NCBI GenBank assembly: GCA_051294905.1
Contig: CM119372.1
Coordinates: forward strand, 6,016,001 to 6,080,000
Reading direction: 5' to 3'
Source: Botryllus schlosseri
Lineage: Eukaryota
Length of the DNA: 64,000 bases
Position 1 is the first letter of the stretch; each line of letters starts with the position of its first letter. Below are positions 29,377 to 54,700 of the stretch, in pieces. Position numbers and translations under genes: made by a program. Under the pieces are notes generated by a model. The model made no database searches. It saw only the letters and a program-made list of their open reading frames with translations, and was not told the origin of the DNA.

Positions 29377-30688
29377 ATGTCTCTTCGTTCGATCATCGTT
29401 ATTGCAGTGGTAGCGGTTTGTATTAGGGAAGGGGCATGCAGCTGGAGTCATTTTGTAGACTTTGCTAAAAAAGCCGCTACAGGTGCTGGAAAATTCGTCG
29501 TAAAACATCCGTGAGTATGTTCACGCAATTATTCCTCTCACGTTACAGAACATAAGAGATGTACGACTCACATAATAGCCTGTATTTCTATGTCTTTGTG
29601 AGTGACAACTCACAGATTGAAAGTCAATGATGTTGAGTAGGGGTCGAAGATCTGATTCGTTTAATGAGCCATATTGCCCCTCCATTGTGAATTTATGGAT
29701 CTTATGGAATCATATAACACTTTCGATCAGTTGTGACGTTGCTCGACATTCAATTCTTATGGTCACATAACGGTGATGTCGTGAAGAATTCGTGCTCAAC
29801 GAATTAAATTGAAATAGCGAAAGTATCGATAAATATATTACGAATATGTGTCTCGAAGAAGCGAGTGTTGGCTCAATTCTATAAATTATGCCACCGATAT
29901 TAAAGAGGGAAATGCAAATCACTGCGATATTTGTCAGCTAATGTAAAAATAATATATATACCATTTCACGAAATCTCCTCATAACCAAATCCCTCGGACT
30001 CAATTTACAGTCTTATATAAGTCTGGTGTAATCCTACTTTTCGTAACGTAGTGCATACGTTCTGATCAGCTCATAAGACTGTGGTAAGACAGAAATGTTT
30101 GAATAAAGAGTTCATCAGTGATCGAACACTACCCGTCCAACACACCACCTTACCGTGTACCGAATTGAGGGAAACTTTATAATTGCGAACTTGTCTACAT
30201 ACAGGGAGATACTCGCCACTGCGGCCATGCTCGACGAAGATTTGTTGCATTACATGCACGATTTAAAAGAAAAGGTTGGCAATTTGCTACATCTCACGAC
30301 ATCTTATAAATTAAAAATCATTTCAGTTTTCATCCTTAGAGTCTGTCTCATGAAATAAAGCTATTTTCATAAACACGGCCATATGGGCGCATCGGAACTA
30401 AAAAAAACTCACAAGTTTTAATTTTTACTTCAGGACCAAGCTGCCTATGACCAAACCATCGGGAGTTTGAGGACAGAGTTCGCCAGCATCATGAACGATG
30501 CTGCAGCAGACGACGCCATCAACGATTTTGAAGCCATCATATCTATGGGTAATTTCACACCGTTTTGTTGTTGCGCTGCATTTTGTGTAAGTAGCCTACT
30601 ATTAATCTTGCGTTCAGACGCAGGCAACGAAAGGGAGGAAGCGAGCGACGCACTTGTGTCACAGATGATGTCGCACTTGCTTAATTAA
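29377..30688 (+). CDS. Styelin-like antimicrobial peptide precursor, paralog A (129 aa)
   Basis: Exons 29377-29510, 30205-30274, 30434-30548, 30618-30688. Translation: MSLRSIIVIAVVAVCIREGAC-SWSHFVDFAKKAATGAGKFVVKHPEILATAAML-DEDLLHYMHDLKEKDQAAYDQTIGSLRTEFASIMNDAAADDAINDFEAIISMDAGNEREEASDALVSQMMSHLLN*. Exon sizes 134/70/115/71 mirror paralog B (134/76/115/71). Confidence 0.82.
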
Positions 30689-32249
30689 ACGGGCCTATAT
30701 CGTCAGCCGCATTGATATCAACGATGCTTCCGTCAACGAAAACCAGATCACGGCACACCTGGGTTTAGCATGTTTCATTCACATGTATGTTGCTGGCAAT
30801 AAAAATACAAGCGAACCATATACGACCGAGGTCGACTCCAGAATCCCTTTCCCGAGTATTGGAGGTTAATCTCGGCTCCTCCATGCCATCTAATCAGCTT
30901 AAGCGATGTTTTACAAAAGGCCCAAAACGAAAGTAGGCCGTGATACAAATCGACAGATCATAATAATCAATACCGGTGTGGTGTAAAATGACCATAGATG
31001 TCCAATACTAAACAACAACATGCGTTGATATATGGCACATATTCATTGCGCGCACTATACGAATAGTGCCTGTATAGGACACGCATGTCGCATAATCAGA
31101 TCACACGATCGCCGATGCACATGGGATATCCAGGGGTCGAAAGTAAAGGGGGCACACGTAACTTTTAGATCATAAACACTTTGACATCATATATTTTCGC
31201 TACGTCACGAAATCTCTGCGACGAATAATCGTAGCTCCAAGTTTGACTCCCACTATTTATCCAGGATATGGTACGGACAGATAATATCGGGGTCTGCATG
31301 GATTACCATACATTGTAATTATGACTTTCAACGTTTGAAACGAACTGAAGTACACTAATACGTTCCTTTGGTATGACTGGACCGGGTCTTGATTCCGCAA
31401 TCAATCTGTCGAGGGCCTTGGCACTCAAACACTATACTCAACTTCATGTTTCTATGCCACGTACAATTTAAGGATTCTTAACCAGGAAACACGAGAAAGA
31501 AGATGAAATTATAAGCTATTTAGCGTATTTGTATATAAAGAATATACGTGACAAGTAACTTTGGAATAGTTTGGTTTTGTGTTATGATCAGATATGGTCA
31601 AAGTTGTCAGTGTTCTACTGTAGCAGATTTGAGGCCGTGATTTTCAACTCAAATACATGTAGAAGTTGGTGGTGGTGGCCCCTTTAGAAATTTCAGGGTA
31701 TCGGTATACGTCGTGGGTTCTATCCCCGTCCGGATCAGACCAAAGACCAGATTAGTAACACCGGTATCCATGGCTTTTACGCTTGTCGCTCAGCATTATC
31801 GGGATTGCACGGAGAGGTAACCTAGACTTAAAAACATCACAAGCATATATATCCGCACCAGCGGCATATGCAAATCATACACCCATGGTATGTATATGCA
31901 GAGATCGTGTATATGTAGGCTATATCATGAGTAGCCTATACATCAAGGAAATGTACAACGTCCTATTCATTCGTATTCCTATTCCTATATCTTCACGACA
32001 AAAGCAAAATCACCACAGACAATACGAATAGGTGAGATGTTTGGAAATCTATTCAGTTCCAGGGCCTGCTTCGCTAAGCTGTCATAAGATTTTCACCAAT
32101 ATAAGTGGCGCAAACATATCCCCAACCTTCTTGCTATACCTTACAAAATCCAAAGTGTAAGGAGGAACTATAATCCAACCTAAAACCGGTAAGAAGAAAT
32201 GCAAGTGGTCTACAAACATAAACACTTGATTCAAGTAGTAGGCTACAAG

Positions 32250-34577
32250 CAGTGGCGGCTCGTGACAATATCGGGCGGTGGGGCAAGGGCTGCGAGCGAC
32301 TTTTATCAACATGACGTCACAATGGCGTTTTCCAACGTTAAAAAGTAACTTTAATATGATGGTCACATGAATTTCCCGACAACAGTGATTTTAACGTAGG
32401 TGCCGCGAGAGGTTTGCCGGTGAGCCGTGACTTGAAGTGTGGTAACAAATGTTTTATTCATTTTTTTTTAATCAAAGGATTATTTTACATAATGTACGTG
32501 AACTAAGAATCGTCCCTATGCCACGAATCAATTATCAGGTCATCCTTAGTAGCATGCGTTATGATTTCATAGTAGAGTTAGAGAATACGCAAATCGATAG
32601 GCCGTCCGAAAGTGTTTCGTACACGATCCTGGTGTGTTACGACCACTGAGCTGGTGGTTACGAGTTACGAACAGGTGATAGGCAACCAAAGCGGAGGTAC
32701 CCGGCGTACGATTGGATCAATGGACTGGACAATTTCTAGACCTTTAATTTTCGCTCTAAAGGCAACTGCGTAAACTAGCCTACGTACGGAGCAAAGATTC
32801 AATACGATTCATGTTCGCACTTGACTTGACCAGACTAATTCCAATGACTAGAACTCGAGAGATTGCGTAAGCCTAACTGCAAAGGTCAACGACTTCGGAC
32901 ACATACGCAATTGTTATCTCATAGATTGGGCCTGTCATATTGAATCCAGAACATCAATTTGAATGGTCTTTGAAGAACTAAGGACAGCAGCCTCGGAACT
33001 TCGGTCTCGGAACAACATAGTACATTTTGGCCTTGAAACTGGAGATTGTGACGCAACACATACGGCTTACTGTCTATAAGTCTGCTGCGAAATAGCCGTT
33101 GGAAAATATATTAATCAATAAAGACATGAATGAAAGCCGTAAACTTAGCATACTGTTACATGAAATCATCGAGAAGTAGCATTCGCAATCTCATAACCCA
33201 TTCCGGCATGGTACACTGTCAAAATCAATACAAACAGACGAACACCGAACTTTGAGTAAAATAGATCGAGGAATAGGCTGATCGAATGATCAGCTGTTAG
33301 CCGACATCGAAAATGAAATAGCTATCGCATTTGACAGGGGATTGTAAGCAAATGGTTTGAAGGCCACAATTTCACAGTGAAATGCACATTGGCGAACATA
33401 AAATTATGTGAATATTTGAATGCAAACCGAGAAACTTAGTTTGCTGTTTCATGCGATCATCGAGATATACCATTGGAAATATCATCACCGATCTCGTTAT
33501 GGAACGCAGACTAGATTAGCACAGACAGACACCGGCTTTTGCGTGAGATCCGCAATGATGTGGGTAGGCTAAGTATCAGATCAGCGCGCATCTCTACCAT
33601 ACTCGACCTCGAAAACGAAATAACTGCCTCAATCATTGAGCGTCAACTTTAAGACTTGGCACCGCGTTCGATACTAAAATCAAGACATACCGTGCAAAAG
33701 CTCATGACAGATCTAGGTATGGAACATCGTTAAAATCAATAGAGACCAATAACGGCTTTTGCGTAAATCTGTTAGCGATAAATGAAGAGTCAGCTCTCAC
33801 TCGACTTTGGAAACGAAATTACCACCCACATAGTTCAGTGACAAACTTAAAACTTGTTACAGCGGTCGATACTAACATTAAGACTTACTGTGCCAAATGT
33901 CATGACCGATCTCGGTATGGAACGTCAAAATCAATGGAGACCAATGCCGGCTTTTGAGTAAAATCTGTTTGCTGTACAATGTACATGATAGATCAGCACA
34001 CACTGAACTTCGGAAACGAAATTACTACCCTTATCTTTAAGTAGCAAGCCTGAAACTTGGAGCAGTGCTAAATACCACCTTCACGACATATCATACCAAG
34101 TTTCAAGAATTATCATGGTGCGAAACACCGTCAAAATCGACATATACCAGCAAAGGTCGACTCAACGCATATCATGGTAACCGAGTTCAGATATAGATAC
34201 GATTGTTACATCACACCTTAAGGGCGACAGGCATAGTTGCCCCACTTGCTCGGCCATTTTACGAATAAGAGAGAGTAAATCACCGTTTCTTTATTGTGCG
34301 CGGCTTTGAGAGAATAGATAGTGAAAGCTTGTTATGAGCGCTACCGGGGCAAGCCCCGGCTAGGCATTCACAAAGCGAAAACACAGAAGAGAATTCGATT
34401 TTCGCAGAGACTTCGCTATGTATGGGCATTTGTTAGCGAAAGCACAAGAATAATGCGGGTTTCGCTGTGATCTCGGTATATACTGATTGCTGTGCGTCTA
34501 TAAATGGTTAAATTGTTATTGAACAGAATTTTAGGTGGGGCAATGCCCCAGTTGCCCTATAGGACGAGCCGCCACTG
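32250..34577 (+). mobile_element. 2.3-kb non-autonomous hAT element, copy 2
   Basis: TIR CAGTGGCGGCTCGT; perfect TSD GCTACAAG; no differences from copy 1 seen by eye. Confidence 0.92.
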
Positions 34578-34766
34578 GCTACAAGTATAGGTAAAACATA
34601 TTTAAGAGTAAACATGCTCTGTTACTGAGTATCTCTGGCTATGATGCCATAGTGCAGCCTACAGATGTTGTTGTGTGTGGTGTTCATGATGGTCACGATC
34701 ATTTGATATCATAGGCCGATATTCTTTGTTATGATTCCATAGCTGCCGACTTGTAGCTATACTAGC

Positions 34767-35213
34767 TAGGGTTGCATTTAAAACAAAAATCAATTTAAAA
34801 TAAACATGTTTAAAACAATGCCCTAATTAAAAACATGTTTTTTATTGTTTTTTTGGTTTTTTCGAGCCATGACGTCACGAATATTAAATTGTGACGTAAT
34901 AGTGGATTGACATTGACAATTGAAAATATAGGGTAAATATAGCTCCTTTGGCGAAATATCTGTACTAAAAATGTTGAACCGACTATTTTGAGGGTTCCAA
35001 CCATCCCATGTCGATATACGTCAGCTATATCGGGTGGTAATTGTCCATAGGCTCATACAACATGTTTTTTGGAAAGTATTTGCACACTTATGGCATAATT
35101 TTACAACTTAAAAAAACGTAATTTTTTTAAATAAGGCCTTTGTTTAAAACACTGTTTAAAACATGTTTTAAGCAAAGTGTTTTAAAACATCGTTTGTTTT
35201 AAATGCAACCCTA
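34767..35213. mobile_element. ~440-bp hAT MITE (TAGGGTTGCATTTAAAACAAA TIR), inserted into a SINE
   Basis: Long perfect TIR. A second copy at 49843-50268. SINE pieces lie on both sides. Confidence 0.8.
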
Positions 35214-36156
35214 CTTGGAGCAGGGCCCACTTCGACACCGCCTGCGCGGATCAGATGGCGAGGAGGAGCCTACGGGGGGAACTAACACATGTCAGATATC
35301 ATTTTAGCATCATCATTAACGAAAAGCAGTTACTGGAATCCATTCGTGAATTGACCGACTAAATGATAGTTCAGAGTGTTGTAAATGTTACTGAACTTAC
35401 ACGATTGTTTTAGTTAGTTCATACATTCAACGCGTGAGTTATTAATACACTGGTTTTGATTCATAATATTACCAGTTCATTTACTACAATCGACCATTGT
35501 AGACAGAACGTCCGAGAAAATTTCATGAAATCTTTTGGGATACTAGCGCTGAAAAGGTTAAGAACTACTGCTCCAATCTATTTGTTTTCACTTTGATACC
35601 ATTTGGCTGCATATCAATGCTCGTTGCTCATGCTCACGCCGTTTTCGTTATTCCAGCTACAATTCAATTTCCCTCACAGCATCTTCCAGACTATAGTATA
35701 GTTGAGTAAGCATAACTCACCGTTACGCCAGCTTCAGTTATAGTTTTAATGGTAACTAACTGGGATATCTGCTACCATCGAAAGTCACCGTGACGCACGG
35801 TACCGCCCTTCTATATATACTCTGTCGGTAAACGGAGCCGCCTGAGCGAGGTCATGTGACTATGATACAGTGCAATGGCAGGTAAACCTGAAGGAACCAA
35901 AATAATATTTGGGTACCGTGGTGAAAATTTGTTCTTGGGCTGTAAAACTAGGACTAGTAAGTAGCCCATACTACTAACCTAAATCAAGGGTTCCCAACCT
36001 TTTTTACATCGTGAGCTCCTCTGGAAAGTTTATAAAAATCAATGCCCCCTATTTCTTCAACCCTTGTAAAAACGAAGGAAACATCATTTTAATTGGAGAA
36101 AAAAACAGTTGTGTACAGTTATAGTGGAGAGGATTTAGAGATGATAAATAAAATTA

Positions 36157-37080
36157 CAGTGTTGGGATCAGGTCACTACCTTCGAGTCACGAGTCATTTC
36201 GAGTCATTGCACATTTTGACTCGAGTCAAGTCAAGTCAATCGATTTTCAAAGGTGACTCGAGTCAAGTCAAGTCAGTCGTTTTTTGGAGATGACTCGAGT
36301 CAAGTCAAGTCACGAGTCAAGTCACAATTCAAGTCAAATTGAATTTTCGAAGTACGAGTGATGATTCAAAGTCATTACATTTTGCTAGCTGTGTGAAAGA
36401 CAGATTAATAAATCATTTATCTTAATCGAATAACGAATATCTAGTCAAATATAAATGCAAAACGACGGTGTATCCCTCACGTACACGTAGAACTGGTACG
36501 TGAGTAACTGTACAGCTACCTACTACAGTCAGTTCTTATCAGCCAAAATATAGGACCTAATAAGACGATTCGAGAAGTTACAACAAATTGATATGGTACA
36601 ATAGCCTACACTACCCATCTACATATCCGTGAGAATATAAACGCACGCAATATATTCGTTCGATTTAAATCATACAAGAGGATTGGTAAATGTGAGCACT
36701 GGGCAACGTAAGCATTGAGCCGTCTAAGAAACAGAGACACATTGCTATTTACATTAATTTTCGACTTTGCGGTCAACTTATTTGTGATCTAACAATAGAG
36801 GAACCTTGTAACGTACAATCACTGAATGACTGGTTGTTCTTACAAGTGACACCGGCGTATCTCGAACAATCCGAACATACACAACATGCAGTGATTTATT
36901 CGACACCGCTTACTTAATGACTTGAAATTGACTCGTAAATTTTGCTCCGAGTCACGAGTCAATGCACATTTTCGAAGCTCCGAGTCAAGTCAAGTCAAGT
37001 CATTTTTCCAAAGTGACTCGAGTCAAGTCAAGTCATACGAAAAAGTTGACTCGAGTCTGACTCGAGTCATCCCAACACTG
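36157..37080. mobile_element. hAT MITE with GACTCGAGTC / AAGTC subterminal repeats
   Basis: TIR CAGTGTTGGGAT. Inverted diverged copy at 45503-46457. A related GACTC-repeat remnant at ~1918-2385. Confidence 0.8.
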
Positions 37081-37592: not shown

Positions 37593-40500
37593 TTACTCAA
37601 GAAGAGACGAAGTAATCTTCTGTGCGAGTTGGTCGCTTGCTCTTTGTTGTTCTTTTTCGTCATCTAAATTTAAGGGGTCGTATATTAATGCAGGGCGGCA
37701 TTATGGATTAGTCAATAATATTACACTAAATGCACCTGCGGAAATTGACCGTATAGCGCTCAAGACAAGAGCCCGCAAACGGATATTTCAAACCGGTATC
37801 GAAATATGACATATTTCAACTAAAAAATCTAATTAATGACTCTGATTTAAAATATGGGTCAAATAAAAGTTTCAGTTAGGTATATTAAAGGTCCAGCGGA
37901 CTAGGAAAGTAGTACTTCCAGTCCGACAATATTGTAGTTCAGAAAACACAATTCTCAGCATTTCAACCACGAGTTGAGCTGGTATGTACCTTGTAATTAC
38001 CCCCAACAGTACTCAAAACCCTCCCTGGTATGGCCTTCGTAAATACTCTGCCGGTCGGGAGCATGACAGTACCAGCGCTAAATGGTTGACGGAAATGGAC
38101 CGAGAGAATTCAGATTTTAATGCGGCCATATTGGCGATGCTTATCGCAATCAATAGAAGACAACATTAATGACCAAAGAGCGCGGTTTATGAAGGGTAGC
38201 TGGATAATTCCGATGTTTCTACGGAGCGCGATACGTCGGCTTAATAGACACCGCGTTTAATTCTCTCGCTCTCTCTCACCATATATATATACATATCGAA
38301 TTTAGTAGCGCAGCCTAGTTTTATTCTAATGCTGCATCACTATAGTTGGTAACAGGTTCGAGCCTGGGACGGGAGTGGACTGTTGTATAACTCAGCGGTC
38401 CAGGAATAGTCCATAAAGTGTCAAATGATTTCACACGTCAAAGCGCCGTCATTTCTATGCAGCAACACGAAATGCTAGTCATTTTAATATTCCGTGGAAA
38501 GCTCACCCATGGCAATCATCGATTCCAAGTCTCTAATCGCATCGTTGACATGTTCATCGCTCATTACGTTGCTGAATTGTGATTTTACTATGTCTAAGGC
38601 TTGATCATACGTGTCCTGGTCCTGAAATGAAGTCGCATGAAACCATGTTGAGTTTGCCTGCGCGGATACGAGTAGGATATACTTGGAGAAAGCGGACAAG
38701 GACGGCATAGCTTGGCAAAACGGCTGGAGTAGGCTACTCGAAACCGAATCGAATATACCGATTTTCTTTTATTCGTGTCGGACAGTGAGAATCGATACAT
38801 TCGAATAACGACATTATACGCCCATCGTTACTTAACGTTCTTCAATCAACATCAACTATTTTGGATGAAATAATTGCTAATTACAGTTTCGATGCCTTCA
38901 TCGCACCACGGCAACCCTGAAGTCTCGATCGCACGATCACATACGTCAGAACAGGGCACAGTGTAAATGGACTTGAAATATTTGCCTTCATGGAATAGTA
39001 ATATACAGTTTAATATATGTTATAGACCAGTGGTTCCCAACGTGGGCGATTTGGCGGTCTAGGGGGGCGAAAACAACGAAGGGGGCGATAGGGAGCGAAA
39101 ACGAACGAAGGGGGCGATAGGGGGCGAAAACAACGAAGAGGGCGATGGCGCGTTAAAACGGCTATATGGAGTGAGAACCAAACTCCAAACCCCCCAATTA
39201 GGGGGGGGGGCGAACTCGAAGGGGGCCCAAAATTATTTCGTGAATTAACATAAAATATATAGTAATTTTGGCATATATCTTAATTTTTGGGTACCCTTCC
39301 CCCAACAAATCATGTCTAATTACTATTTAGGGGTCCTACCTTTTCCAACACACCACACTCGGCTCTACCGGTAAATCTGATTACGTGAGCAGAGAGAACT
39401 TAAAAAATCGATAGTAATATATATGTAATTCCCTACCATATTGACCGATTCAAACATGAATTATATAAATTTGTCACGCTTCGCGCGTTTAGATGAGATA
39501 CGGTGACTCACCAAACAGTACATGAAATAAGGTATAGCTGATATGTAGCGACAAAAAGCCCACTGGCGGAGGGGGGTCTGGGGTTGGGTTTACCACCGTA
39601 TGGGGCCCAAGACCAACGTTTGGGGGGCTGACGAAGTGCTCTCACGGTCCTGATTGGAGTCAAGTTGGAGAAAAGACTTTTTTTAGGCAACTCACGAAAA
39701 TTTAGCTGCAAAATAGTAATTTCGAGTCAACTCGCCGGTGATCCCAGTTTGTAAACCCATTTTTCGGTTACCAATATTTGGGGGGCGATGATGATCGGCG
39801 TGGAGCTTCAAAGGGGAGCGATGAGTCGAAAAAGGTTGGGAACCACTGTTATAGACCTTATACTTTATATGCCATCCTACACCCAATTAATGATCATATC
39901 CTGTAAGGTTGCTGCTATAATAGAAGAGTAAAACGGTGTACGATGGGAGCCGTGTACATTCTGGTCGTATTTGCCTCTTTGTTCATATACACCTAGGATC
40001 ATGGACGTGAAGCCTCGACAACCCGAGTTTCGATACCCCCCCCCCCCCCGCAATTTGGGCTCAAGATATTATTTTGAGAGACTACAATTTTTAGGGCATA
40101 GAAAGTAAAGAAGGCTACAAAGGACTCACATACCAGTTTTTCAGAAACTAGACACTATATTAGTTTATGAATTATAGCAATTTGAAATTTTAACTAACAA
40201 AACTGTACCTTTATTTATCTATCGCATGTGGAACAATGCTGTAGAACAATGTTCACTTGAACCACATGTCTTTGCAATAGTCAATACTAGGGATGGTGTG
40301 AACCTCTTAAAGGTTCAGGTTCGTGTGAACGCGAACCTTTTTGAAAGGTTCTGTGTGAACACGAACGTGAACCTCATGACGTAACGTTACGTCATATTGC
40401 TAATTCCAACCCTATCTTACAATGAAGTGATAGCTTATATCAATGTACAATTGTACATGGTACCTAGCGACGACTCGGGCCACACCAGGCCACAATGCCG

Positions 40501-41713
40501 AAGTAGCCTACATGTTGGCGTTTTAAACGTCGCTAAATGTATCAACTGAGGCAATCGAAGGATATGATACTCCTATAAATCAATATCTTCTGTCGCTTTG
40601 CTTACAATTTCGACGAGGACTTACCAGGGAATATAAGCTTACGCCTTAAGGGTCTAGGTCAGACCGGACAATTCATTCGGCGTCTGAGTATCGCTACATT
40701 GATATTGAGCAGCGTGTAAACGGGTTTCTATACTTGCTGCCGATACTACCCCATTAACAAGTTATACAGCAGTAGCCAACACCTCAATCGCAAGCATTTG
40801 ATTTTAATGATGCAGTAAAGATATGAAGTCAAGATTGACCCCGTACGCCTGCTAGATTTTTTTGCATCAAAAACGATATCAATCTCATTGATTGCTTGAA
40901 TAAGCATCATTCGCTGACTACGTATTTCGCTAGGGATGTTGTGTGATTGCGGGTCAAACTCACAGCAGAGAGTCACTAAATATTCACAAACGGAAAGCTG
41001 GATATTTCGAGCAAATTTTTGTAACAAAGCAAGTAAGACTTTTGAGATTGTCAAGGTGCATGCTCGTTTAGTGTTGATTTCTAACGCTGCCAGCGCCATG
41101 CATAGAGTGGCCCACAGTTGAAATGCAATAAATATAAACCAAAGATGTTAAAATGAAGTGAAAATTTTATTATATGAAAAAGGTTCACAGTGCAGAACCT
41201 ACCAAGGTTCTGTTGTGAACGCGAAACTCCAAATTTCCGAGGTTCGCACACAGAACGCGAACGTGAACCTCACGTTCACACCATCCCTAGTCAATACCTT
41301 CTTTCAACAGTCTAATTTGTAACAGTTTTTGTGGAGATCGCGATTCGTCAGAGGACGGAAAGCATTTCGCGTAGTTCATCAAGTTCCAAAACTAATTACT
41401 GATACACCAAATAAGAACCGCCGACAGGCATACGCACCTTCGCTTTCAATTCTTTCATGGTCTTCAAGAAATCTGCATCTCCGGCTAATGCTGCCGCTGT
41501 CTGGGCGATTTCACTGAATGTAAAATCCTGACTCGAAAGACTGAATCATCACACTAAATAACGGTAATCGAGTACTTACGGGTGCTGAGCAACGTATCCC
41601 AGTCCACTCTTGAGGCCACTCGTAATTTTGTGAAATATGCTACCAATAAAGGATTCACCTTCATTTATGCTCACGGCAACGACAAGCAGAAGAAGCGGGA
41701 CGCGGAAATTCAT
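37593..41713 (-). CDS. Styelin-like antimicrobial peptide precursor, paralog B (131 aa)
   Basis: Exons 41713-41580, 41513-41438, 38621-38507, 37663-37593. Translation: MNFRVPLLLLVVAVSINEGES-FIGSIFHKITSGLKSGLGYVAQHPEIAQTAAALA-G-DADFLKTMKELKAKDQDTYDQALDIVKSQFSNVMSDEHVNDAIRDLESMIAMDDEKEQQRASDQLAQKITSSLLE*. Intron phases (2,0,1) are the same as paralog A. Confidence 0.82.
39028..39848. mobile_element. Buster/Charlie-type hAT MITE in intron 2 of paralog B
   Basis: TIR CAGTGGTTCCCAAC; perfect TSD TTATAGAC (nnnTAnnn); GGGGGCG subterminal repeats. Confidence 0.88.
40288..41289. mobile_element. hAT MITE with GTGAAC repeats in intron 2 of paralog B
   Basis: TIR TAGGGATGGTGTGAAC; perfect TSD GTCAATAC. 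Fragments of the same family at ~19000-19083 plus 22626-22780 plus 23760-23840, and at 61300-61376. Confidence 0.88.
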
Positions 41714-42851
41714 ATTGATAATTGCTACGGTTCATGCAACGAAGTTCGAACTGGATCAATGGATAACTCGTATAGAGTCGCTCATCTTATAGCTTTCGGG
41801 GTTTGTCAGGATTTCCGCTGGCTTCAATCCGAACAATAGTTCATAGATTGCGTTGGTTCTGTTCGTTCATTGTGAGATATACCGGAATGAATGCTCTAGC
41901 ATGTGCTGTACGTCGATTTCGAGAACATCTGCATTTCCTAGTAAGTCCTGATTTTAATCCAACTGGTGCTATCTCCCATTCGCAAACGAATCTAGCTAGC
42001 CACCAATATTCGATAAAGAAGATTATTATTTTTTACTTATCAAAAAAGTAAAATTTCATCAAAATTTTAGGGTTGGGCCAGAAAAATGTCAAAATTGTTT
42101 ACAAAGTAAAAAGTTTCATTCTAACTACATTTCGTTGGTGTCGTAGAGGATGCATTGTCGGGGTACTTATCAATTGACATATTACACCTTGTAGCCTACT
42201 GTATATAGGGCCTACTGTTACAGATGGCTCCTTATCTACTCATTGTGAATCACAAACCAACGAATGAAGCAAATAAGTTTACATGTCGTGTTGTGTCGCG
42301 TCAACACTTCTAAAATCGAGCGAAGATTTTACTAGCTCATGCCGATATCTCAAATCCGAATCTGAAACTTTTCTGTTTGGTCTGGTGGACATTGGTTCTT
42401 ATAGCACAGCGGTTCTCAACGTACGGATGGATCGCGAGATGTAAACAAAACGCAGATTTGGGTTGCGGTGTATACAACGTTGTCGGTGTGAAGCAACAGG
42501 TGTGTTACTAGCACTCCAGCAGCATATACTGAATTTCAATGCTGCCAACAAACAACTACTGCTGTTGAACGTTTTCTTTTCTATTCTTGTCAAGCTACTT
42601 CCTGAGGACTGACAGTTCCAATCAGAAATGCAGAAAAGTACTACAATTATGAAATAATGAGGAAAATGTCTAATTTAAATATTTGAGTGTAGAGTCTTGC
42701 CAGAAGGAAGTTTTTTAATGTCAAAAAACGTCAAAATTATCATTTGTTTAGTGCGAAATCTTCAGATTTCTAGATAATAGAATAATCGACTTTCATATTA
42801 GTTATTACACTTACGTTCGATTGCATGATGCCTATATGGTAAAGTCTAGTT

Positions 42852-44015
42852 CAGGGCCGGGCAACATATGGCCCGCGGGCCGGATCCGGCCCGCGACGGC
42901 ATTTTGTCCGGCCCGTGGGCAGCTTCCCGTCTTACATGATAATGTGGCCCGCTGCCGATTATAGTCTGCCGAGATTCCCCACTACTTGCTTACTACGTCA
43001 ACTTTTAGTGACTGTGTGTATATTCGAGCGTGAGAGAGTGGAGCTTACGGGTAAGTTCGTCGAAGCATTTACTATGTACTTAACCCCAATGTTGTTTGTG
43101 GTAATCATGGTGTTGGTCGACTGCAATGGCCATTTACACCAGGCCGTTATTTCTTATTTATGATTCCTTAACTGCTAACTGGTAGCATTGCACACGTCCA
43201 GGCTTTTGTGAGACACCACTTAATAGTTATGCCGATGAGATGGCAAGGAGGAGCCTAGATAAACCTCCAACACTTGGGTAGCAATTCCAGAGTCGGACTC
43301 GAACACACAACACATTGGGTTTTGTAGCCGTGGATTATACCACAGCACTATCCCGCCAGCTACTCAACCCTAATATCTTGGTAAATTTGGGATACCGGGC
43401 TTATCGAACAACTTAAAATCTTAATTTTTATGGATTGCACATTGTGTTGATTGATCAGAGAGAAGCAGACATGGCGGTGCATGTATGACAGTGGTTCTCA
43501 AGCTGGGGGGCGTGAAAGCATCTGAAGGGGGCGCGAAGTCACAGTTAACTGAAACTTTTTTCGCGCTTCGCACAATTTACCTCAAGCGCATGGTGTTTAC
43601 TCTATCTATTGTCCTAATTTCATATTTGAGAATTCTTACATCAATAGCCATTACGTTTAATGCCATCAAACTATCCGATGGGATGGCTAGCATTCTGATT
43701 CACCTCCTTAATATTTGTGATATCACGATAAGGGGCGCGCGGAATTTTTCACTATCAAAAAGGGGGGCGTGTTCAAAAATGTTTGAGAACCACATGACAA
43801 TGCTGTTCTCAAATCCACATTCTCTTCGTCGTTATCGGCGAGAAATTGCTTTGAAATAACATTGCTTCGTTAAAATACTATCATTAAATACGATTTATTC
43901 CATGTATAATGTATATGTGAATAAATGGGCAAATAATGTATTGATTCAGCGATCCGGCCCGCCAAGTACTTAATTTTCCTATATCCGGCCCGCCGACTGG
44001 AGAAGCACGCGGTCC
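42852..44015. mobile_element. Charlie-like hAT MITE carrying an internal SINE; diverged inverted relative of 47106-47972
   Basis: Begins CAGGGCCGGGCAACATATGGCCCGCGGGCCGGATCCGGCCCG. Colinear in reverse with 47106-47972, plus an extra insertion at 43488-43795. Confidence 0.7.
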
Positions 44016-44874
44016 CGTTCACCCGTTTAGTCATGAGTGACGCGATTGTTTTTGACATGTCCAAAAGAGTCAAAATTTTGTCGAAATTATAGCGTTAGGT
44101 CAAAAAATTGTCAGAATTGTTTGCAGAGTCAAAATTTCTATTGCAACCTGCATTTCGTTTGTATCGTATATGTTTGCACTGTCGGTGAACTTATCATTTG
44201 ACATTTTACATATTGTTGCATACTTTACAGGCCTGTAGTTGTAGACGTTGTCAGCCCATTTTGAATCATAAACGACCAACGGCATCAAATAGGTTGACAT
44301 GGTGTTATGTTCAATGTACCGCAATATGCTAACCGAAAAGAGACTGCATGACCATTGGTACTTATATCATCATTACCATTGGTTTATTAGCAAATTTATC
44401 AGTTCAATACACCACAAAAATGCGATACAATGAAAAGATAGCGAGGTGTCGAAGCGACATTGAGTAGTCTATGTAATCAGACACCCACCTTGTGCTAGGC
44501 GATGTATAGAGGAGGCATGCACACTGAATGAAAAGTAAAGAAGATAGTATAGAAAAAAGCAATGGACAAAAATGGGGTGGCATGTCATGGAAGGCGAGAT
44601 CGATAGGTCAGTCGTGGTCCGGTAATCTTGAGGATGCACTATTTAGTAGTAATTGCTTGTATTTCGACTTGAATGTGGGCATGCTCGTCGACTGTGGGAT
44701 AGCCAGCGGGATACTGTTCCACACATCAGGTGCGGCATATTTGATGGAGCGATGATCTTTTCGGTCGATCATATGATATTTGGACGACGTGGACGCGCGT
44801 GTGTTGTACTTGTGCGCTTTTGATTCCGAGGTAAAAAAAAGTCATTGAAATATTGAAATATTATCAAGACGCGC

Positions 44875-45096
44875 ATGTTGCAAAATTTTGATGTAGACAA
44901 AATTTTCAGAATGAAGCAACTACCACCAGTGTACGCACAACTTCAGTGTTGTCAGCCAACAACTACTGCTGCTAAACGTTCTTTCTCCATTCTTGGCAAG
45001 CTACTTGATAATGACAGACACTTTCTACCCGATAATGTAGGAAAGTATGTTTCGTTGTACTACAACAAATTTTATTTGAATATGTTTGTTTTTTAG
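44875..45096 (+). pseudogene. Remnant of hAT transposase C-terminal dimerisation domain
   Basis: 'YAQLQCCQPTTTAAKRSFSILGKLLDNDRHFLPDNVGKYVSLYYNK' fits the hATC P-T/S-x-x-x-ERxFS motif. Homologous pieces at ~27060-27190, 42540-42620 and 55670-55760. Confidence 0.7.
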
Positions 45097-46457: not shown

Positions 46458-46668
46458 GGAGAAGCATGGAATGATTTTATACCTTCTCAAAAGCAACTAT
46501 TATAGTTGTCGGCAAAATCATACCAGTCCAAGGAATCAAAGTTTCCCAGCCGTCGTTCACAAAATCATAAATATAAATTCAATGTGCACCATACAATGTC
46601 CGTGGGATGCTGTCAAGATATCATGGCATCTGACTTTGCAGTGTTCATTCTAAATAGCTTATCTATCC

Positions 46669-46941: not shown

Positions 46942-47105
46942 ATCTATCCGAAAGGTATAGCCTGCTGTGTACAGCCTGGGTAGTTTTGCTCGTGCAAAAC
47001 ATAATTTTCGCAAGGTTTGTTGCCACGTTCAAAAATAATGTCGTAATGACATCAACGTCCCAAACTGATTGCGAGTAGCTTTTGCTCTCTGCTTAGTGCT
47101 TATAG

Positions 47106-47972
47106 CAGGGGCGGTCAACTTCTTCAATCGGCGGGCCGGATATAGGAAAATTAAGTAGGCCTACTTGACGGGCCGGATTGCTAAATCGATTTATTCGCCC
47201 ATTTATCCACATATACAAGGAATAAATCGTATTTCATGACTGTATTTTTAACGACAGCAACGCCACTTCACCGCCATTTTTAGCCGATAATGACGAAGAC
47301 ATTGTGGATTTGAGAATCCAGGCGCCACCGTGTCTGGTTCTCTCTGATCAATCAACGCACGGTGCAATCCTTAAATAAGATTTCAAGGCGTTCGATAAGT
47401 CCAGTGCGCCAAATTTACAAAGAAATCAATTCATTAGCGTTGAGTATAGGTGACGAGATAGCGTCGTTGTTCAACTGTATGGCCTAATTAATCTCGATAT
47501 TGAATTCATGCGGCCTGCGTCCTCTACGAAATTTGAATAGTGGCCCGTTTTGACTTGACAACCATCTGGCATAAGCGGTGTCTTACAAAAGCCTAGAAGT
47601 GGGCCGTGCTACTTGTCGGCAGTTACGGAATCAAAAATAAGAACTATCAGCCTGGTGTAAATGACCAGTGTAGTCGACAAACACAATGATTGCCACAAAC
47701 GACATTACGGTTGAGTACATTGTAAATGCCGATAATGTAAGTCTTCTCGCTTCGACGAACTTACGCGTAAGCTTCGCTCTCGCACCCTGCGCATACACGC
47801 ATATGATAACACACTGTCACTAAAATTGGACCTAGTAAGCAAGTTGTGGGGAATCTCGGCAGACTGACGCCGCGGGCCACATTATCATATAAGACGGAAA
47901 ACAGTCCGCGGACCGGACAAAATCCTTTCGCGGACCGGATCCGGCCCGCGGGCCGTATGTTGCCCGCCCCTG
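47106..47972. mobile_element. Charlie-like hAT MITE with captured SINE 3' part
   Basis: CAGGGGCGG...CGCCCCTG termini; perfect TSD GCTTATAG. Confidence 0.85.
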
Positions 47973-48495
47973 GCTTATAGCATAGCATGTCCGATCGTCC
48001 ATCTAATGTGCATAATCGAGAGTACAGTGAGACTACAAATTAAATTAATGGCTTTGTTATCGGAGTATCGATTGACCAGATGCTAACGAAACGGTTCTCA
48101 AAGTTTTTGAATACAATTACATAACAGTCTGCTTGCAATATTTTGAATGGCCCACGGTAAATCAAAAATAGAAGGGACGCATAATGATTAATCTTAGGTC
48201 ATGTTCATTCTACACGGTACTATTCGTGAGATTCTCGCCCCTCGCTTGTTCGTCATAATTTCAGATTTCTCAGCCCGTTTTGGCGCGGAAATGGTCATCG
48301 CGCCGACGACTACAAGTCCCGCTCTCGCATGCTGCTACAAGGAATATAGCGCTCTCTCGTAATTTTGAATACAGTTAGATTCATTCATGTATATTATGTT
48401 TATTTTTACGTAAGCGCATGGCACTAAATCGCGCCCCGCGCGAAGAAAAATTAAAAGTTTAATAATTCTGAAAGTGCCCGCAAATACTGTGATTT

Positions 48496-48949
48496 GGCGC
48501 TTCTTCGATATACCCCCGAGATCAAAATATATAAACGGAAAAATAAATTCTTTTTTCGTGTTCGGTACGAAATATTAGGGTTTGAAGTGGGTTAGGGTTA
48601 GGGTATCCCAATATTAGGGTTGTGGGTGAGAGATATTAAGGTTAGGGGATGACATATATTAGGGCTGTGTTAATGACGTATATTAGGGTTGGGCGTGAGG
48701 GATATTAGGGTTGGGGGTGATAGAATCCCCGAACTAACGTCCGAAACCACCCACTCACAACCCTAATATTACTCAACCACAAATCTAATGTCTCCCACCC
48801 CCAACCCTTATATTGGAATGCCCTAACCAATACCCTAACCCACTTCCAGCCCTAATATCCAGCACCCACAACTCCAATCCCAAGAGGAAAAAAGAATATA
48901 TTTTTCTGTTCATAAATTTTGATCTCGGGGGTATATCGAAGAAGCGCCG
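48496..48949. repeat. Inverted repeat with telomere-like TTAGGG/CCCTAA-rich arms
   Basis: GGCGCTTCTTCGATATACCCCCGAGATCAAAAT pairs perfectly with ATTTTGATCTCGGGGGTATATCGAAGAAGCGCC. The inner left arm has repeated ATATTAGGGT and GGGTTAGGGTTAGGG; the inner right arm has the complements. Confidence 0.8.
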
Positions 48950-49700
48950 AAATATTTATGTCCCCGTCTTTCTTCTGGCTAGTTATAAGTTTTTGGAAGG
49001 TGCTTCTCGGTCCCAGAAAATTGTTTCCCGTACCTCGAAATGACAACTTAACCCAGTTTTGTAAACCACTGAACTAACATCTTCATATGAAGGAAGGAGG
49101 AAAACTGCGGTCAGCTACAAGACTTTTGTTGCGACTCCACACAATTTCGTAAAAGTACCGTATATGCTCATACTACATACTATAAAACTGAATTTGTGTA
49201 AAGTGTGAATCTCCCACTACGTGAAGTCGACTTATCGATGATTTATAATAATCAGTGTATTCTCATTATACCCGATGACGTCGCACTTCCGCAAAAATTG
49301 CGACACATTCAATAGATATATATTTGTGATGTTATATATAGGCCTACTCACTAGTTGCCATTACACAAAAGCGCTTTTTATAGTTTCTCTTGAGAATCAC
49401 ATTCTGGTATCTGATAACAAGTTGTCCACTGTCCAGTATGAAACAGATTCTTAATATATCGGCGAATATTTTAAGAGAATCCTGTCCGTATCTACTGAAC
49501 ATGAAGAAGGAGTAATCTATACCGATTCCCAGTATAACTAATTACAAATAGTCCATCATCATGTAACCCAATATACTGTAGCCACTCGATTGCCTCTCCC
49601 AGCTCTAAGATTTTTATACCAACTGCATGGCACAGAGCGTGTTTTTATGGGTATGAGCACGATGTAAAATTTTTAAACAGCTCCTTGTATTGCTATTCGA

Positions 49701-50337
49701 CAGAGGTGGTCCGAGTAGGCATCGTCTGTACTCAAGTAGATGTAGAAGTAACATCAGAAACAGCTTTGCCTAGAAAACTTGACACTCTAAAGTAGAAGTT
49801 AAAAGAATCTAAAATCATAACTCCTTGAGTAAGAGGTGTAAGTAGGGTTGCATTTAAAACAAAAATCAATACAAAACAAACATGTTTAAAAAAAGGCCTT
49901 TATTGAAAACATGTTTTTTTTAGGCCATGTCGTCACGAATTTTCAAGTGTGACGCCATAGTGGATTTACATTGACAATTGAAAATATAAGGTAAATATAG
50001 CTCCTTTGACGAAATATCTCTACTGCTAATGTTCAACCGACTATTTTGCGGGTTCCAACCATCCCATATCGATATACGTCGGCAATATCGGGTGGTAATT
50101 GTCAGTAGGCTCATACAACATGTTTTTTGGAAAGTATTTGCACAATTATGACATCATTTTACAACTTAAAAAAACACATTTTTTTTAAAAGGCCTTTTTT
50201 AAAACACTGTTTAAAACATGTTTTGAACAAAGTGTTTTAAAACAACGTTTGTTTTAAATGCAACCCTAAGTGTAAGTATAAACAAAATTGCTTTAGTACT
50301 TCGAAAAACAAGAAGTTTTCGTCAGCGATCACCTCTG
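49701..50337. mobile_element. AAGTAG-family hAT MITE containing nested MITE 49843-50268
   Basis: CAGAGGTGGTC...GATCACCTCTG with TSD CTATTCGA/CTATTCAA. Inner element TSD GGTGTAAG/AGTGTAAG. Confidence 0.78.
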
Positions 50338-51707
50338 CTATTCAAATTATATTCATGTATGCATAATGCCATCTGGGGAAGTATCTATATTTAGTGGTGG
50401 AAGGGGGTAATTTATTTCCAATGCAAAAAATACATTTTTTTTGAATAATTGACAAACGTGTACTGCATTCTCGTTGAAAGCACATACATGTATCTAATGA
50501 TTAAGTGATCAAAAAACGTTCAAATGAGAATTATGAATAGCGACATTTTATGTTGAGCGAAAAATATCGTGTGGTTCTCACAGGGAAAAAAACATTCTGC
50601 CGCAATCTTCTTTTGACTTCTTGCCGTTCGTCCAATGTAACGTCACTCCTCGTTTGCATCGGTTTTTATACGGAATTTGAAAACGGAAACACCTTCGGGC
50701 CCGCATAGTACGCAATTCACGCGGTCCAGAGGACTTCATTTATTTTTCATCCGCACCAGTGCGTACCATCCCACAGGTTCAAAAGCACTGATATGGGATA
50801 CGTGTCTTGATTCGCTGGAGTTGAACTGCCGGGAGTACAGCCACTGCACATTGCACCGCTGTATTCAAATTTATCATTCTGTTTCATTTCATCGATACGA
50901 ATGCTATATAATATAGAGTGGTAAACTGAGATTTGTCTCTTTAATACTATAAACAGCATTGTATCACAATCACATCTTGACGTAGCCTACTCCTTGTCAG
51001 TCGCTTAGTTGTTTCATTCATCTGCGTGATTTGAAGATATCTGCGTCCAACCTGGGAATGCAACAGATCAAACTGAGTTACGAGTATAGGGCTGCATGGG
51101 TAGGGTTGAGCTACTGAATGATGTGATTACAAGTCTAATGTCCAAGGACTGCGTATTCTGACGTCACAGCAGTACTAATGAGTAATGACTAGAAATGCTC
51201 GTATATATATTTTGCGGCCACAATGTTGCCAGTTGCATGTGGCTCAAAATAATTGCGTATTTCTGAGTCATGACTTTGCGCTTTGGGACCAATGTGAGGG
51301 TAACTTGACAGAAATGTCGTCCCATGAATATTCGCAATCTTGTGTTACATGCTTCCCGTGAAGAGATACGGCTACCCTGCTCAATGCCTGTTACGTCGGA
51401 TTTGGTGATGGGATTGTTGATAAAGTTATTTTCAATTCTCAGCTAGTTGCTGACGATTATCCCTGACGAGTGTCAGCCGTCAATATTAGGGCCATAATTT
51501 CTATATGAATTGAATACGTTATTCAATTATAATTAAAGTATTGAAAATGAATTCACATTTGATGATCGACTCGGATTATAATTCTAGATTCGCTGTCCCC
51601 ATTCCTATAATATCACCTCATTAAGTATGCCTATGGCTTTGTAAGTCAATTTGTATATGGTGTGTAAATCTGAGCCAAACTCCACCAATAACATGCCAAA
51701 TAATAAT

Positions 51708-54700
51708 TCATAACCAACGTCCGATGTCCAATAGCGCATTGAGGTCGCTAACGGCATCTTCTGCGTCGGTGTCTGCTACTTGATCTGACATTTTGCGAAT
51801 TAATTTTTCGACATAGTCATCGTACGATTCAGAGTCCTGCAATGAAAATTAATGTAAGTAAAACACTTTTGGGGCCACTATCTTTTAGATCTCTAATTCT
51901 CTATTAAGAAATCTCTATACACGATTCGATCCCTAGAAGACGCATTTATACTGTCCACTGAACACGCGATTTCACATGAACAATGAACATGACATAGAAT
52001 AGGCAGGGCGCAAAAGGCCTCAGCTACCGATAAGCACCCCGTCCCCCCATAAACATACATGCGTGCACTTTTTGGCCTTAAAACTGATGTAAACAAGACT
52101 TTAAATTAAATAGGGCAGAAATTCACGACAGGATTTCGCGACGAAAATTGTATCAGAACGGAACACAGGAGTGGAAGACGAGCTTCTGGTCCAAATATTC
52201 GTTCGGTATATCAGTATACAAGATGCTCTTAAATCTCATGAACTATACTTTGTAATATCGTAACCCAACGATAAAAAATCACTATATATTTCAGTGCGCT
52301 TTGCAGTGATTACCTTTTCCCTCAACTCTTTCAGCGCGTCGAAGAACTCTTGGTCTCCAAACATCGTTGCTGCTTTTACCAATGCTCTACACATAGTATA
52401 AAAGCCAGCATAAAAGTAAGACAATAATATAAACTGTAAGGATTTCAAACTGTGGGTGGGGTGCTTATCCAGTAGTAAGCGATCGACGCAATCGCTGATC
52501 AATCAATTGTATACGTAATTTGTGAATGGATTTAGAAACAAGCAGTGGCGGCTCGTGACAATATCGGGTGGTGGGGCAAGGGCTGCGAGCGACTTTTATC
52601 AACATGACGTCACAATGGCGTTTTCCAACGTAAAAAAGTAACTTTATGATGGTCACATGAATTTCCCGACAACAGTGATTTTAACGTAGGTGCCGCGAGA
52701 GGTTTGCCGGTGAGCCGTGACTTGAAGTGTGGTAACAAATGTTTTATTCATTTATTTTTAATCCAAGGATTATTTTACAAAATGTACGTGAACTAACAAT
52801 CGTCCCTATGCCACGAATCAAGTATCAGGTCATCCTTAGTAGCATGCGTTTTGATTTCATGGTAGAGTTATAGATTACGCAAATCGATAGACCCTAAAAT
52901 CCGACCGTCACCCCAAATTCGAAATCCGGATCCAGTCCGGCCAGGTAAAAAAACATTGAAATCCTGCTCCGGCTCCTGAACCGGACTGTGGCCATCTCTG
53001 GTTACGACCAGGTGATAATAGGCAACCAAAGCGGAGGCACCCGGCGTACGATTGGATCAATAGACTGGACAACTTCTAGACCTCTCATTTTTGCTCTAAA
53101 GGCAACTGCGTAAACTACGTACGGAATAAAGATTCGATACGATTCATGTTCGCACTTGACTTGACCTGACTAATTCCAATGACTAGAACTCGAGAGATTG
53201 CGTAAGCCTAACTGGAAAGGTCAACGAGTTCGGACACATACGCAATTGTTATCTCATAGATTGGGCCTGTCATATTGAATCCAGAACATCAATTTGAATG
53301 GTCTTTGAAGAACTAAGGACAGCAGCCTCGGAACTTCGGTCTCGGAACAACGTAGGACATTTTGGCCTTGAAACTGGAGACTGTGACACAACACATACGG
53401 CTTACTGTCTATAAGTCTGCTGCGAAATCGCCGTTGGAAAATATATTAATCAATAAATACATGAATAAAAGCCGTAACTTAGTATACTGTTACAAGAAAT
53501 CATCGAGAAGTAGCATACGCAATCTCATAACCCATTCCGGTATGGTACACTGTCAAAATCAATGCAAACAGACGAACACCTAACTTTGAGTAAAATAGAT
53601 CGAGGAATAGGCTGATCGAATGATCAGCTGTTAGCCGACATCGAAAATGAAATAGCTATCGCAATTGACAGGGGATTGTAAGCAAATGGTTTGAAGGCCA
53701 CAATTTCACAGTGAAATGGACATTGGCGAACATAAAATTATGTGAATATTTGAATGCAAACCGAGAATCTTGGTTAGCTGTTTCATGCGATCATCGAGAT
53801 ATACCATTGGAAATATCATCACCGATCTCGTTATGGAACGCAGACTATATAGATTAGCACAGACCGACACCGGCTTTTGCGTGAGATCCACAATGACATA
53901 GGTAGGCTAAGTATCAGATCAGCGCGCATCTCTACCATACTCGACCTCGAAAACCAAATAACTGCCTCAATCATTGAGTGTCAACTTTAAGACTTGGCAC
54001 CGTGTTCGATACTAAAGTCAAGACATACCGTGTGAAAGCTCATGACAGATCTAGGTATGGAACATCGTTAAAATCAATAGAGACAAATAACGGCTTTTGC
54101 GTAAATTTGTTGGCGATAAATGAAGAGTCAGCTCTTACTCGACTTTGGAAACGAAATTACCACCCACATAGTTCAGTGACAAACTTAAAACTTGTTACAG
54201 CGGTCGATACTAACACTTACCGTGCCAAATGTCATGACCGATCTCGGTATAGAACATCGTCAAAATCAATGGAGACCAATACCGGCTTTTGAGTAAAATC
54301 TGTTTGCTGTACTATGTACATGATAGATCAGCACACACTGAACTTCGGAAACGGAATTACTACCATTATCTTTAAGTAACAAGCCTGAAACTTGGAGCAG
54401 TGTTAAATACTACCTTCACGACATATCATACCAAGTTTCAAGAATTATCATGGTGCGAAACACTGTCAAAATCGACCTATTCCAGCAAAGGTCGACTCAA
54501 CGCATATTACGGTAACCGAGTTCAGATATAGATACGATTGTTACATCACACCTTAAGGGCGAGTAGGCATATTTGCCCCGGTTGCTCGGCCATTTTACGA
54601 ATAGGAGAGAGTAAATCACCGTTTCTTTATTGTGCGCGGCTTTGAGAGAATAGATAGTGGAAGCTTGTTATGAGCGCTACCGGGCAAGCCCCGGCTAGGC

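What the first reader, a model, noticed from the sequence alone, without database searches (positions are those of the whole stretch)
30205..52386. The acidic pro-piece of paralogs A-C is long and conserved like a folded helical domain
Seen: the mature-peptide regions differ strongly, but the C-terminal ~55-75 aa keep a gap-free pattern: (D/E)L(K/R)xKD...YD...........D....DA(I/V)xD(F/L)x(A/S). A and B also share a last exon (ASDxL....S.LL). This is longer than the short anionic extension I recall for styelins. Inference: it may be a structured inhibitor, chaperone or sorting module, analogous in role to the cathelin domain of cathelicidins.
Basis: partly seen in the sequence, partly recalled or inferred. 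Interest (0 to 1): 0.7.

Follow-up and report, generated by a model that had tools for sequence, protein, structure and literature searches.

The report
Botryllin-like precursors with helical acidic tail
Three neighbouring transcribed genes, likely of a colonial sea squirt, encode predicted secreted defence-peptide precursors resembling botryllin, whose long acidic tail is predicted to form helices that likely keep the peptide harmless in storage, though the tail is not clearly better conserved than the peptide itself.

Summary
The three paralogs are real four-exon genes with shared intron phases; RNA covers all three. Each encodes a signal-like start, a 31-35-residue amphipathic segment and a 65-75-residue acidic tail. 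A 52-column block of the tail is gap-free, 14 columns are hydrophobic in all three (1.6 expected), and exon 3 is predicted as a helical hairpin (pLDDT 88). The claimed contrast is weak: tail identity is 27-42% against 29-43% for the peptide, and lower non-synonymous change holds in 1 of 3 pairs. By charge and hydropathy the isolated tails look disordered and only peptide plus tail looks foldable, suggesting co-folding rather than a free-standing domain. A long tail is not new: botryllin (PMC9966394) has about 98 residues after its peptide, and its published tail epitope matches the exon 2/3 junction here (p=0.0007). The cathelin comparison is an analogy only. This scan noted a similar exon and reading earlier on other DNA of this genome (e1-9814913). 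Verdict: new, weakly cationic relatives of botryllin; structured tail plausible, function untested.

The parts
29377..29510 (+). Gene A exon 1: signal-like 21 residues and first 24 residues of the predicted peptide, ending in KHP (outside the finding's span)
30205..30274 (+). Gene A exon 2: end of peptide, then the tail from Asp55 (30233); boundary reads L|D, no Gly
   Evidence: splice sites from sequence
30434..30548 (+). Gene A exon 3 (115 nt, phase 0 to 1): predicted helical hairpin of the tail
   Evidence: low RNA depth
30618..30688 (+). Gene A exon 4: last predicted helix and stop; AATAAA 110 nt downstream
   Evidence: X1 contig laid from 30617 with 184 letters before it, close to exon 2 plus exon 3 (185 nt)
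41580..41713 (-). Gene B exon 1: signal-like 21 residues and first 24 residues of the peptide, ending in QHP
   Evidence: joint 41513|41580 in 68 reads of X23 and one X1 contig
41438..41513 (-). Gene B exon 2: end of peptide, G|D boundary, tail from Asp57 (41479)
38507..38621 (-). Gene B exon 3 (115 nt): predicted helical hairpin, helices 2-19 and 22-37
   Evidence: RNA depth; allele in P0001
37593..37663 (-). Gene B exon 4: last predicted helix and stop
   Evidence: about 100 reads deep in X23 and in X21
56566..56693 (-). Gene C exon 1: signal-like 22 residues and first 21 residues of the peptide, ending in KHP (outside the finding's span)
52314..52386 (-). Gene C exon 2: end of peptide, G|D boundary, tail from Asp54 (52355)
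   Evidence: joint 51835|52313 in 2 reads of X23 and one X1 contig
51719..51836 (-). Gene C exon 3: hairpin region; the window allele has GA at the paralogous donor (after 51722) and GT three bases further on
51014..51051 (-). Gene C last exon: short tail without similarity to exon 4 of A and B
   Evidence: joint 51052|51724 in 3 reads from 2 starts, in 1 of 4 runs

Best explanation
A, B and C are transcribed four-exon paralogs that likely encode botryllin-related defence-peptide precursors, in which a 65-75-residue acidic tail predicted to form three or four amphipathic helices likely folds together with the 31-35-residue amphipathic peptide, would keep it inactive during storage, and would be cut off just before an Asp. 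Shown: gene structure, transcription, gap-free tail, kept hydrophobic register, a 12-residue match to the botryllin tail. Predicted: signal peptides (by eye), the exon 3 hairpin, helices in exons 2 and 4. Inferred: the tail covers the hydrophobic face of the peptide helix rather than only cancelling its charge, because its charge (-9 to -14) far exceeds the peptide's (+1 to +4) and neither part looks stable alone; cleavage at G|D would give amidated peptides from B and C and a non-amidated one from A; storage in blood-cell granules as for botryllin; antimicrobial activity.
For: Same exon layout and phases, canonical splice sites (one donor of C excepted), open frames; RNA over exons of all three and joints for B and C. 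First 18 residues after the signal are amphipathic in 3 of 3 (moment 0.44-0.54, p 0.002-0.007). Botryllin's published tail epitope (PMC9966394 Table 4) aligns in the same register at the exon 2/3 junction of all three: 5, 7 and 4 of 12 identical, joint p=0.0007. G|D boundary in 2 of 3, as in styelins, which carry a Gly amidation signal and are cut before Asp (PMC8659048; PMC7387483). Conserved hydrophobic columns spaced by 3-4 residues, no Pro, no Cys; hairpin at pLDDT 80-88 in 5 of 5 models, repeated with gene A as query. Charge-hydropathy index negative for the tails and slightly positive (+0.06, +0.05, +0.01) for peptide plus tail. [quoted passage not shown]
Against: The other two botryllin epitopes, from the peptide, match none of the three (p 0.10-0.89), and the KHK motif shared by styelins and botryllin reads KHP or QHP here. 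The peptides are weakly cationic (+2, +1, +4) against +11.2 for botryllin, so their activity is uncertain. The link to botryllin rests on 12 residues noticed by eye before testing; its full sequence could not be read. Of the 11 tail segments tested singly, 4 have a significant hydrophobic moment, none of them in A. The tail is not clearly more conserved than the peptide. C keeps only a short unrelated last exon, so the fourth helix is dispensable. Botryllin's own cleavage is inferred, not measured. The charge-hydropathy margins are small.
Confidence: 0.5

Rival explanations
1. The tail is an autonomously folded helical domain with its own job (granule sorting, self-association, scaffold in extracellular traps, ion binding).
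For: Gap-free 52 columns with 14 all-hydrophobic columns; confident hairpin for exon 3 alone; exon 3 kept at 38 codons in all three; charge far in excess of what neutralisation needs; an antibody to the botryllin tail epitope labels both granules and extracellular traps (PMC9966394); lower non-synonymous divergence in A-B (0.30 against 0.49, interval excludes zero).
Against: Isolated tails predicted on the disordered side; pTM of the hairpin only 0.53; short amphipathic sequences are readily modelled as hairpins (own knowledge); no extra constraint in A-C or B-C; last helix lost in C.
Confidence: 0.22
2. The proteins are not cut: the whole 96-110-residue secreted chain is one small helical protein (membrane- or lipid-active), and 'peptide' and 'tail' are simply its helices.
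For: Divergence is about even along the chain; only the whole chain scores as foldable; the N-terminal segment is weakly cationic; A lacks the Gly; botryllin processing has not been shown biochemically.
Against: All indels fall in the N-terminal segment; sharp switch to acidic sequence at a G|D site in 2 of 3, as in styelins whose processing is known; the synthetic botryllin peptide is active alone.
Confidence: 0.15
3. The tail is only a polyanionic, mostly disordered spacer; its conservation reflects common descent and a weak helix or charge constraint.
For: Identity no higher than in peptide or signal; negative charge-hydropathy index; a plain deca-glutamate pro-piece suffices to block an antimicrobial peptide in a model system (PMC6057973, passages).
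Against: With synonymous sites near saturation the tail kept its length and 14 hydrophobic columns in helical register; about 30% large hydrophobic residues and no Pro; 24-29% Asp/Glu is more than a +1 to +4 peptide needs.
Confidence: 0.13

Closest known systems
Botryllin of Botryllus schlosseri (Franchi, Ballarin and Cima 2023, PMC9966394)
   Same: Signal, 30-40-residue helical peptide, long C-terminal pro-region; tail epitope matches the exon 2/3 junction in register; its second epitope ends in KEL, which B and C carry just before that match (adjacency in botryllin not checked).
   Different: Precursor 158 residues with about 98 after the peptide, against 118-131 and 65-75; peptide charge +11.2 against +1 to +4; KHK motif against KHP/QHP; the paper does not analyse the structure of the pro-region in the sections read.
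Styelins C-E of Styela clava (PMC8659048 passage; PMC7387483 passage)
   Same: 22-residue signal, 31-32-residue peptide, Gly, cleavage before Asp, anionic C-terminal pro-piece.
   Different: Pro-piece 26 residues; DOPA-bearing peptides, whereas A-C have 0, 1 and 0 Tyr in the peptide; no KHK.
Ciona linear cationic helical peptide precursors (Ci-MAM, Ci-PAP; PMC7387483)
   Same: Signal, cationic amphipathic region and anionic helical pro-region in that order, in 17 of 22 candidates; pro-region relatively conserved within the Ci-MAM family.
   Different: That screen took 50-100-residue precursors with one short anionic helix; here three or four helices. Sequence homology not tested.
Nematode cecropin P4 pro-region (PMC2834666 passages)
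   Same: Anionic C-terminal pro-region that inhibits the mature peptide: the closest functional precedent.
   Different: About 30 residues; no homology claimed.
Cathelin-like domain of cathelicidins; BRICHOS pro-domain of annelid peptides (PMC6057973, PMC6780910, PMC10608444 passages)
   Same: A pro-region with more regular structure than the peptide it carries; proposed chaperone or inhibitor role.
   Different: Both lie N-terminal to the peptide; cathelin has a cystatin-like fold and is much more conserved than its peptide, which does not hold here; its inhibitory role is itself disputed.

Membership tests
Styelin/botryllin precursors | Signal, 31-37-residue peptide, C-terminal anionic pro-piece in that order | tested here: met
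   21-22, 31-35 and 65-75 residues; signal judged by eye, no signal predictor run
Styelin/botryllin precursors | Cys-free amphipathic helix in the peptide | tested here: met
   Moment 0.44-0.54, p 0.002-0.007 in 3 of 3; no Cys
Styelin/botryllin precursors | Strongly cationic peptide | tested here: inconclusive
   +2, +1, +4 plus 1-2 His against +11.2 for botryllin
Styelin/botryllin precursors | KHK motif in the peptide (PMC9966394 Discussion) | tested here: not met
   KHP, QHP, KHP; hence filed as relatives of botryllin, not as styelins
Styelin/botryllin precursors | Gly amidation signal and cleavage before Asp | tested here: inconclusive
   G|D in B and C, L|D in A; sequence only, cleavage not observed
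Styelin/botryllin precursors | Sequence similarity to the botryllin pro-region | tested here: met
   12-residue epitope, joint p=0.0007, same register in 3 of 3; only 12 residues available
Styelin/botryllin precursors | Full-length homology and shared exon structure with botryllin | not testable with these tools
   Sequence and gene map are a picture in the supplement; searches did not return the protein
Styelin/botryllin precursors | Antimicrobial activity; expression and storage in morula cells | not testable with these tools
   RNA runs show transcription only, no cell types
Cathelicidins (cathelin domain) | Pro-domain N-terminal to the peptide | tested here: not met
   The acidic region is C-terminal
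Cathelicidins (cathelin domain) | Four conserved cysteines (recalled) | tested here: not met
   No Cys in any tail
Cathelicidins (cathelin domain) | Cystatin-like fold | tested here: inconclusive
   Only exon 3 was modelled with confidence; all-helical
Cathelicidins (cathelin domain) | Pro-domain far more conserved than the peptide | tested here: not met
   Identities overlap; lower pN in 1 of 3 pairs
Saposin-like proteins | Six conserved cysteines (recalled) | tested here: not met
   No Cys after the signal in any paralog

The most novel reading that the evidence does not exclude
The exon 2-3 helical module is an unrecognised, disulfide-free carrier domain of styelid ascidians: one fold that caps and stores interchangeable N-terminal payloads, from the weakly cationic helices of this cluster to strongly cationic botryllin, and that stays in the released extracellular traps with a job of its own. 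It would be an independent, all-helical, C-terminal solution to the problem that cathelin and BRICHOS solve, and a sequence handle for finding divergent tunicate defence peptides.
Probability: 0.25. Interest if true: 0.65.

Novelty: new member of a known kind. Interest (0 to 1): 0.37.

Why it matters
How anionic pro-pieces silence antimicrobial peptides is unsettled: charge neutralisation, complex formation and induced conformation are all proposed, and precursor structures are lacking (PMC6057973, passages). These three paralogs separate the ideas, because the tail keeps its hydrophobic register while the peptide charge is only +1 to +4. They also add weakly cationic members to a family in which one gene has been studied. 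The layout itself is known from botryllin, styelins and Ciona, so the finding extends a known kind rather than opening a new one.

Tried and rejected
Homologue searches: exon 3 profile against longer proteins gave 1 hit among 303 candidates, an allele of B read from genomic DNA; near-length proteins none; exon 1 profile 0 of 1189 candidates; full HMMER over 1.84 billion representatives gave the same allele and two repetitive proteins rejected as compositional matches; metagenome contigs 0 of 597 candidate stretches. These collections are poor in spliced animal proteins, so this shows neither novelty nor absence, and no ortholog set could be built for dN/dS. Pfam on 11 exon pieces: nothing at cut-off; weak pleurocidin (E 0.044) and moricin (E 0.064) matches on exon 1 of B and C. 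PDB by sequence: nothing under E 0.2. Fold searches with the hairpin: no Foldseek match at E 0.001 (saposin D at E 6.7 rejected); best Z 5.6 among 48,161 chains, generic hairpins only. ESM Atlas: unnamed 30-34-residue clusters, recognition below the mark. Complex prediction of B exon 3 with residues 15-44 of B exon 1: no answer (score 0.02, alignments not used), no evidence either way. Folding gene A's contiguous exon 3-intron 3-exon 4 frame: hairpin recovered, the rest at pLDDT 45-57, uninformative about a bundle. The spliced precursors could not be folded. dS: near saturation in most blocks, so dN/dS rejected as a test. Search for a hidden exon 4 homologue downstream of C exon 3: best score 26, in a repeat, against 33 for A-B; rejected. 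A botryllin primer site is absent from the window with up to 3 mismatches, so none of A-C looks like botryllin itself. Run search: no RNA holder listed; raw-read runs were laid instead. In one search repeats crowded the tables (824 joints not shown), so the joints of A and the two later joints of B were not seen directly. No whole genome was held, so family size was not counted. Literature searches found no structural analysis of the botryllin pro-region; subscription papers, including the styelin cloning paper, are not in the library.
Full report
Gene structure. The window holds three related genes: A on the plus strand (29377-30688), B (41713-37593) and C (56693-51014) on the minus strand. 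Each has four coding exons with introns in phases 2, 0 and 1; exon lengths are 134/70/115/71, 134/76/115/71 and 128/73/118/38 nt, giving 129, 131 and 118 residues (the end of C's exon 3 was mis-set by one base and corrected). Exon 1 of A and of C lie outside the finding's span. RNA supports all three: B is the best covered, with the first joint in 68 reads; A has low depth and contigs that end at predicted exon borders; C shows the exon 2/3 joint in 2 reads and one contig, and a joint to a short last exon in 3 reads from 2 starts in 1 of 4 runs. Other joints were not displayed.

Anatomy. Each protein has a hydrophobic signal-like start (21-22 residues, by eye), then 31-35 residues whose first 18 are amphipathic (p 0.002-0.007) with net charge +2, +1 and +4, then an acidic tail of 75, 75 and 65 residues with net charge -14, -9 and -12. 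The boundary reads G|D in B and C and L|D in A.

The observation. The last 14 codons of exon 2 and the 38 codons of exon 3 align without gaps in all three. Ten of 52 columns are invariant and 14 are large hydrophobic in all three (1.6 expected), mostly 3-4 residues apart. A and B share exon 4 (9 of 23); C has a short unrelated end, and no hidden copy of exon 4 was found. The claimed contrast with the peptide is weak. Identity is 22/52, 14/52 and 15/52 in the tail block, against 13/30, 10/30 and 9/31 in the peptide with gaps or 8/28, 10/28 and 5/28 without, and 9/21, 5/21 and 5/21 in the signal. Synonymous sites are near saturation. Non-synonymous divergence is lower in the tail for A-B (0.30 against 0.49; interval 0.03-0.35), equal for A-C (0.44 against 0.43) and not significantly lower for B-C (0.44 against 0.55). 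All length differences fall in the peptide part (chance 0.02-0.06). So the tail is constrained in length and hydrophobic pattern, but not shown to be under stronger selection overall.

Structure. AlphaFold2 on exon 3 with three rows gives helices 2-19 and 22-37 at mean pLDDT 87.7, pTM 0.53, and the same hairpin with A as query. Exons 2 and 4 each hold one more helix-like stretch by pattern; singly, 4 of 11 tail segments have a significant hydrophobic moment, none in A. The tails have no Pro or Cys. Against a free-standing domain, the charge-hydropathy index is negative for all three isolated tails and slightly positive only for peptide plus tail; the margins are small. The spliced precursors could not be folded, so a bundle is neither shown nor excluded.

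Relation to known peptides. That paper also reports anionic helical pro-regions in 17 of 22 Ciona candidates. Botryllin, from the colonial styelid Botryllus schlosseri, is a 158-residue precursor with a 23-residue signal and 37-residue peptide, leaving about 98 residues (PMC9966394: abstract to results 2.3, Discussion, tables and legends, passages; the supplement with the sequence is a picture). Its tail epitope aligns at the exon 2/3 junction of A, B and C in the same register (5, 7 and 4 of 12; joint p=0.0007, one of three epitopes tested, noticed by eye first). The two peptide epitopes do not match, the KHK motif reads KHP or QHP, and a botryllin primer site is absent. A-C are therefore best called divergent, weakly cationic relatives of botryllin, not styelins and not botryllin itself. 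The species is inferred from this match and from unreviewed earlier notes, not shown. A 2026 atlas speaks of 'one described Botryllin paralog' in morula-like cells (PMC13635237, one passage). Earlier notes of this scan report four-exon botryllin-like clusters elsewhere in this genome, about twenty genes, and a 121-bp acidic exon predicted as two helices; I could not check these, beyond noting that 121 and 115 nt imply the same phase shift.

Mechanism. The most likely reading is a cis-acting storage cap. The tail's helices would pack on the hydrophobic face of the peptide helix, both parts gaining structure, and the acidic surface would keep the precursor off membranes and help granule packing; cutting before Asp would free the peptide, amidated in B and C. 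The gene anatomy and pattern are shown; helices are predicted; packing, cleavage, storage and activity are inferred. Supporting precedents are storage of pro-botryllin in granules, inhibition by the cecropin P4 pro-region (PMC2834666, passages) and the general chaperone-like role of pro-domains (PMC10608444, passages). Simple neutralisation is less satisfying because tail charge exceeds peptide charge three- to ninefold, although a plain acidic run can block a peptide in a model system (PMC6057973, passages). Rivals are an autonomous domain with its own role (the anti-tail antibody also labels extracellular traps), an uncut helical protein, and a mere spacer. PMC5198042, PMC2866484, PMC6780910 and PMC12258801 were read as passages and gave background only.

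Cathelin comparison. Cathelin is N-terminal, cystatin-like and much more conserved than its peptide, and its inhibitory role is disputed. The tail here is C-terminal, Cys-free, predicted helical and about as divergent as the peptide. It may work like a pro-domain of that sort; it is not one.

Verdict. Observation partly confirmed, interpretation partly supported. New members of a known kind, with a tail that is more ordered than a simple anionic extension but not shown to be a domain. Interest 0.37; the bolder carrier-domain reading has probability about 0.25.

Noticed in passing
window 19983-22310, 32250-34577, 52543-54912: Three copies of a 2.3-kb element with 14-bp terminal inverted repeats, each flanked by its own 8-bp target-site duplication, as in hAT-type DNA transposons (class recalled). 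The first two are 99.8% identical; the third sits in intron 1 of gene C.
   Followed up: partly
window 51714-51724 and 51005-51052, minus strand: The window allele of gene C has GA where A and B have the exon 3 donor, with GT three bases on; RNA reads come from another allele that splices at the paralogous point and reads three codons further in the last exon.
   Followed up: partly
window 30549-30617: Intron 3 of gene A is 69 nt and open in frame; if retained it would insert 23 hydrophobic, Cys-rich residues. No RNA evidence for retention was seen.
   Followed up: partly
window 56694-56710, minus strand: The start codon of C directly follows an AG after a pyrimidine-rich run, a possible acceptor for a 5' untranslated intron or a spliced leader.
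   Followed up: no
window 31710-31900: Short element with a tRNA-like stretch, very abundant in RNA run X23 (over 2000 reads deep) but not called as a tRNA: probably a SINE.
   Followed up: partly
exons of A, B, C and P0001: Alleles differ a good deal: the listed variants give A to S in A, T to A and L to M in B, I to F in C, and P0001 has two changes in exon 3 of B; those within the helices are conservative. Only the best-supported variants were listed.
   Followed up: partly
window 26455-28510, 42030-45077, 55301-56084: Blocks 70-85% alike lie upstream of A, upstream of B and in intron 1 of C; either relics of the tandem duplication or an old repeat family.
   Followed up: no
window 4466-4837 and 11493-11897, minus strand: An exon with a weak TMEM26 match (E 0.0086, below cut-off) and an open frame that by eye resembles the C-terminal part of a class I methyltransferase but has no Pfam match.
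   Followed up: partly
window 48493-48951 and 57775-58370: Two self-complementary elements of about 460 and 600 bp.
   Followed up: no
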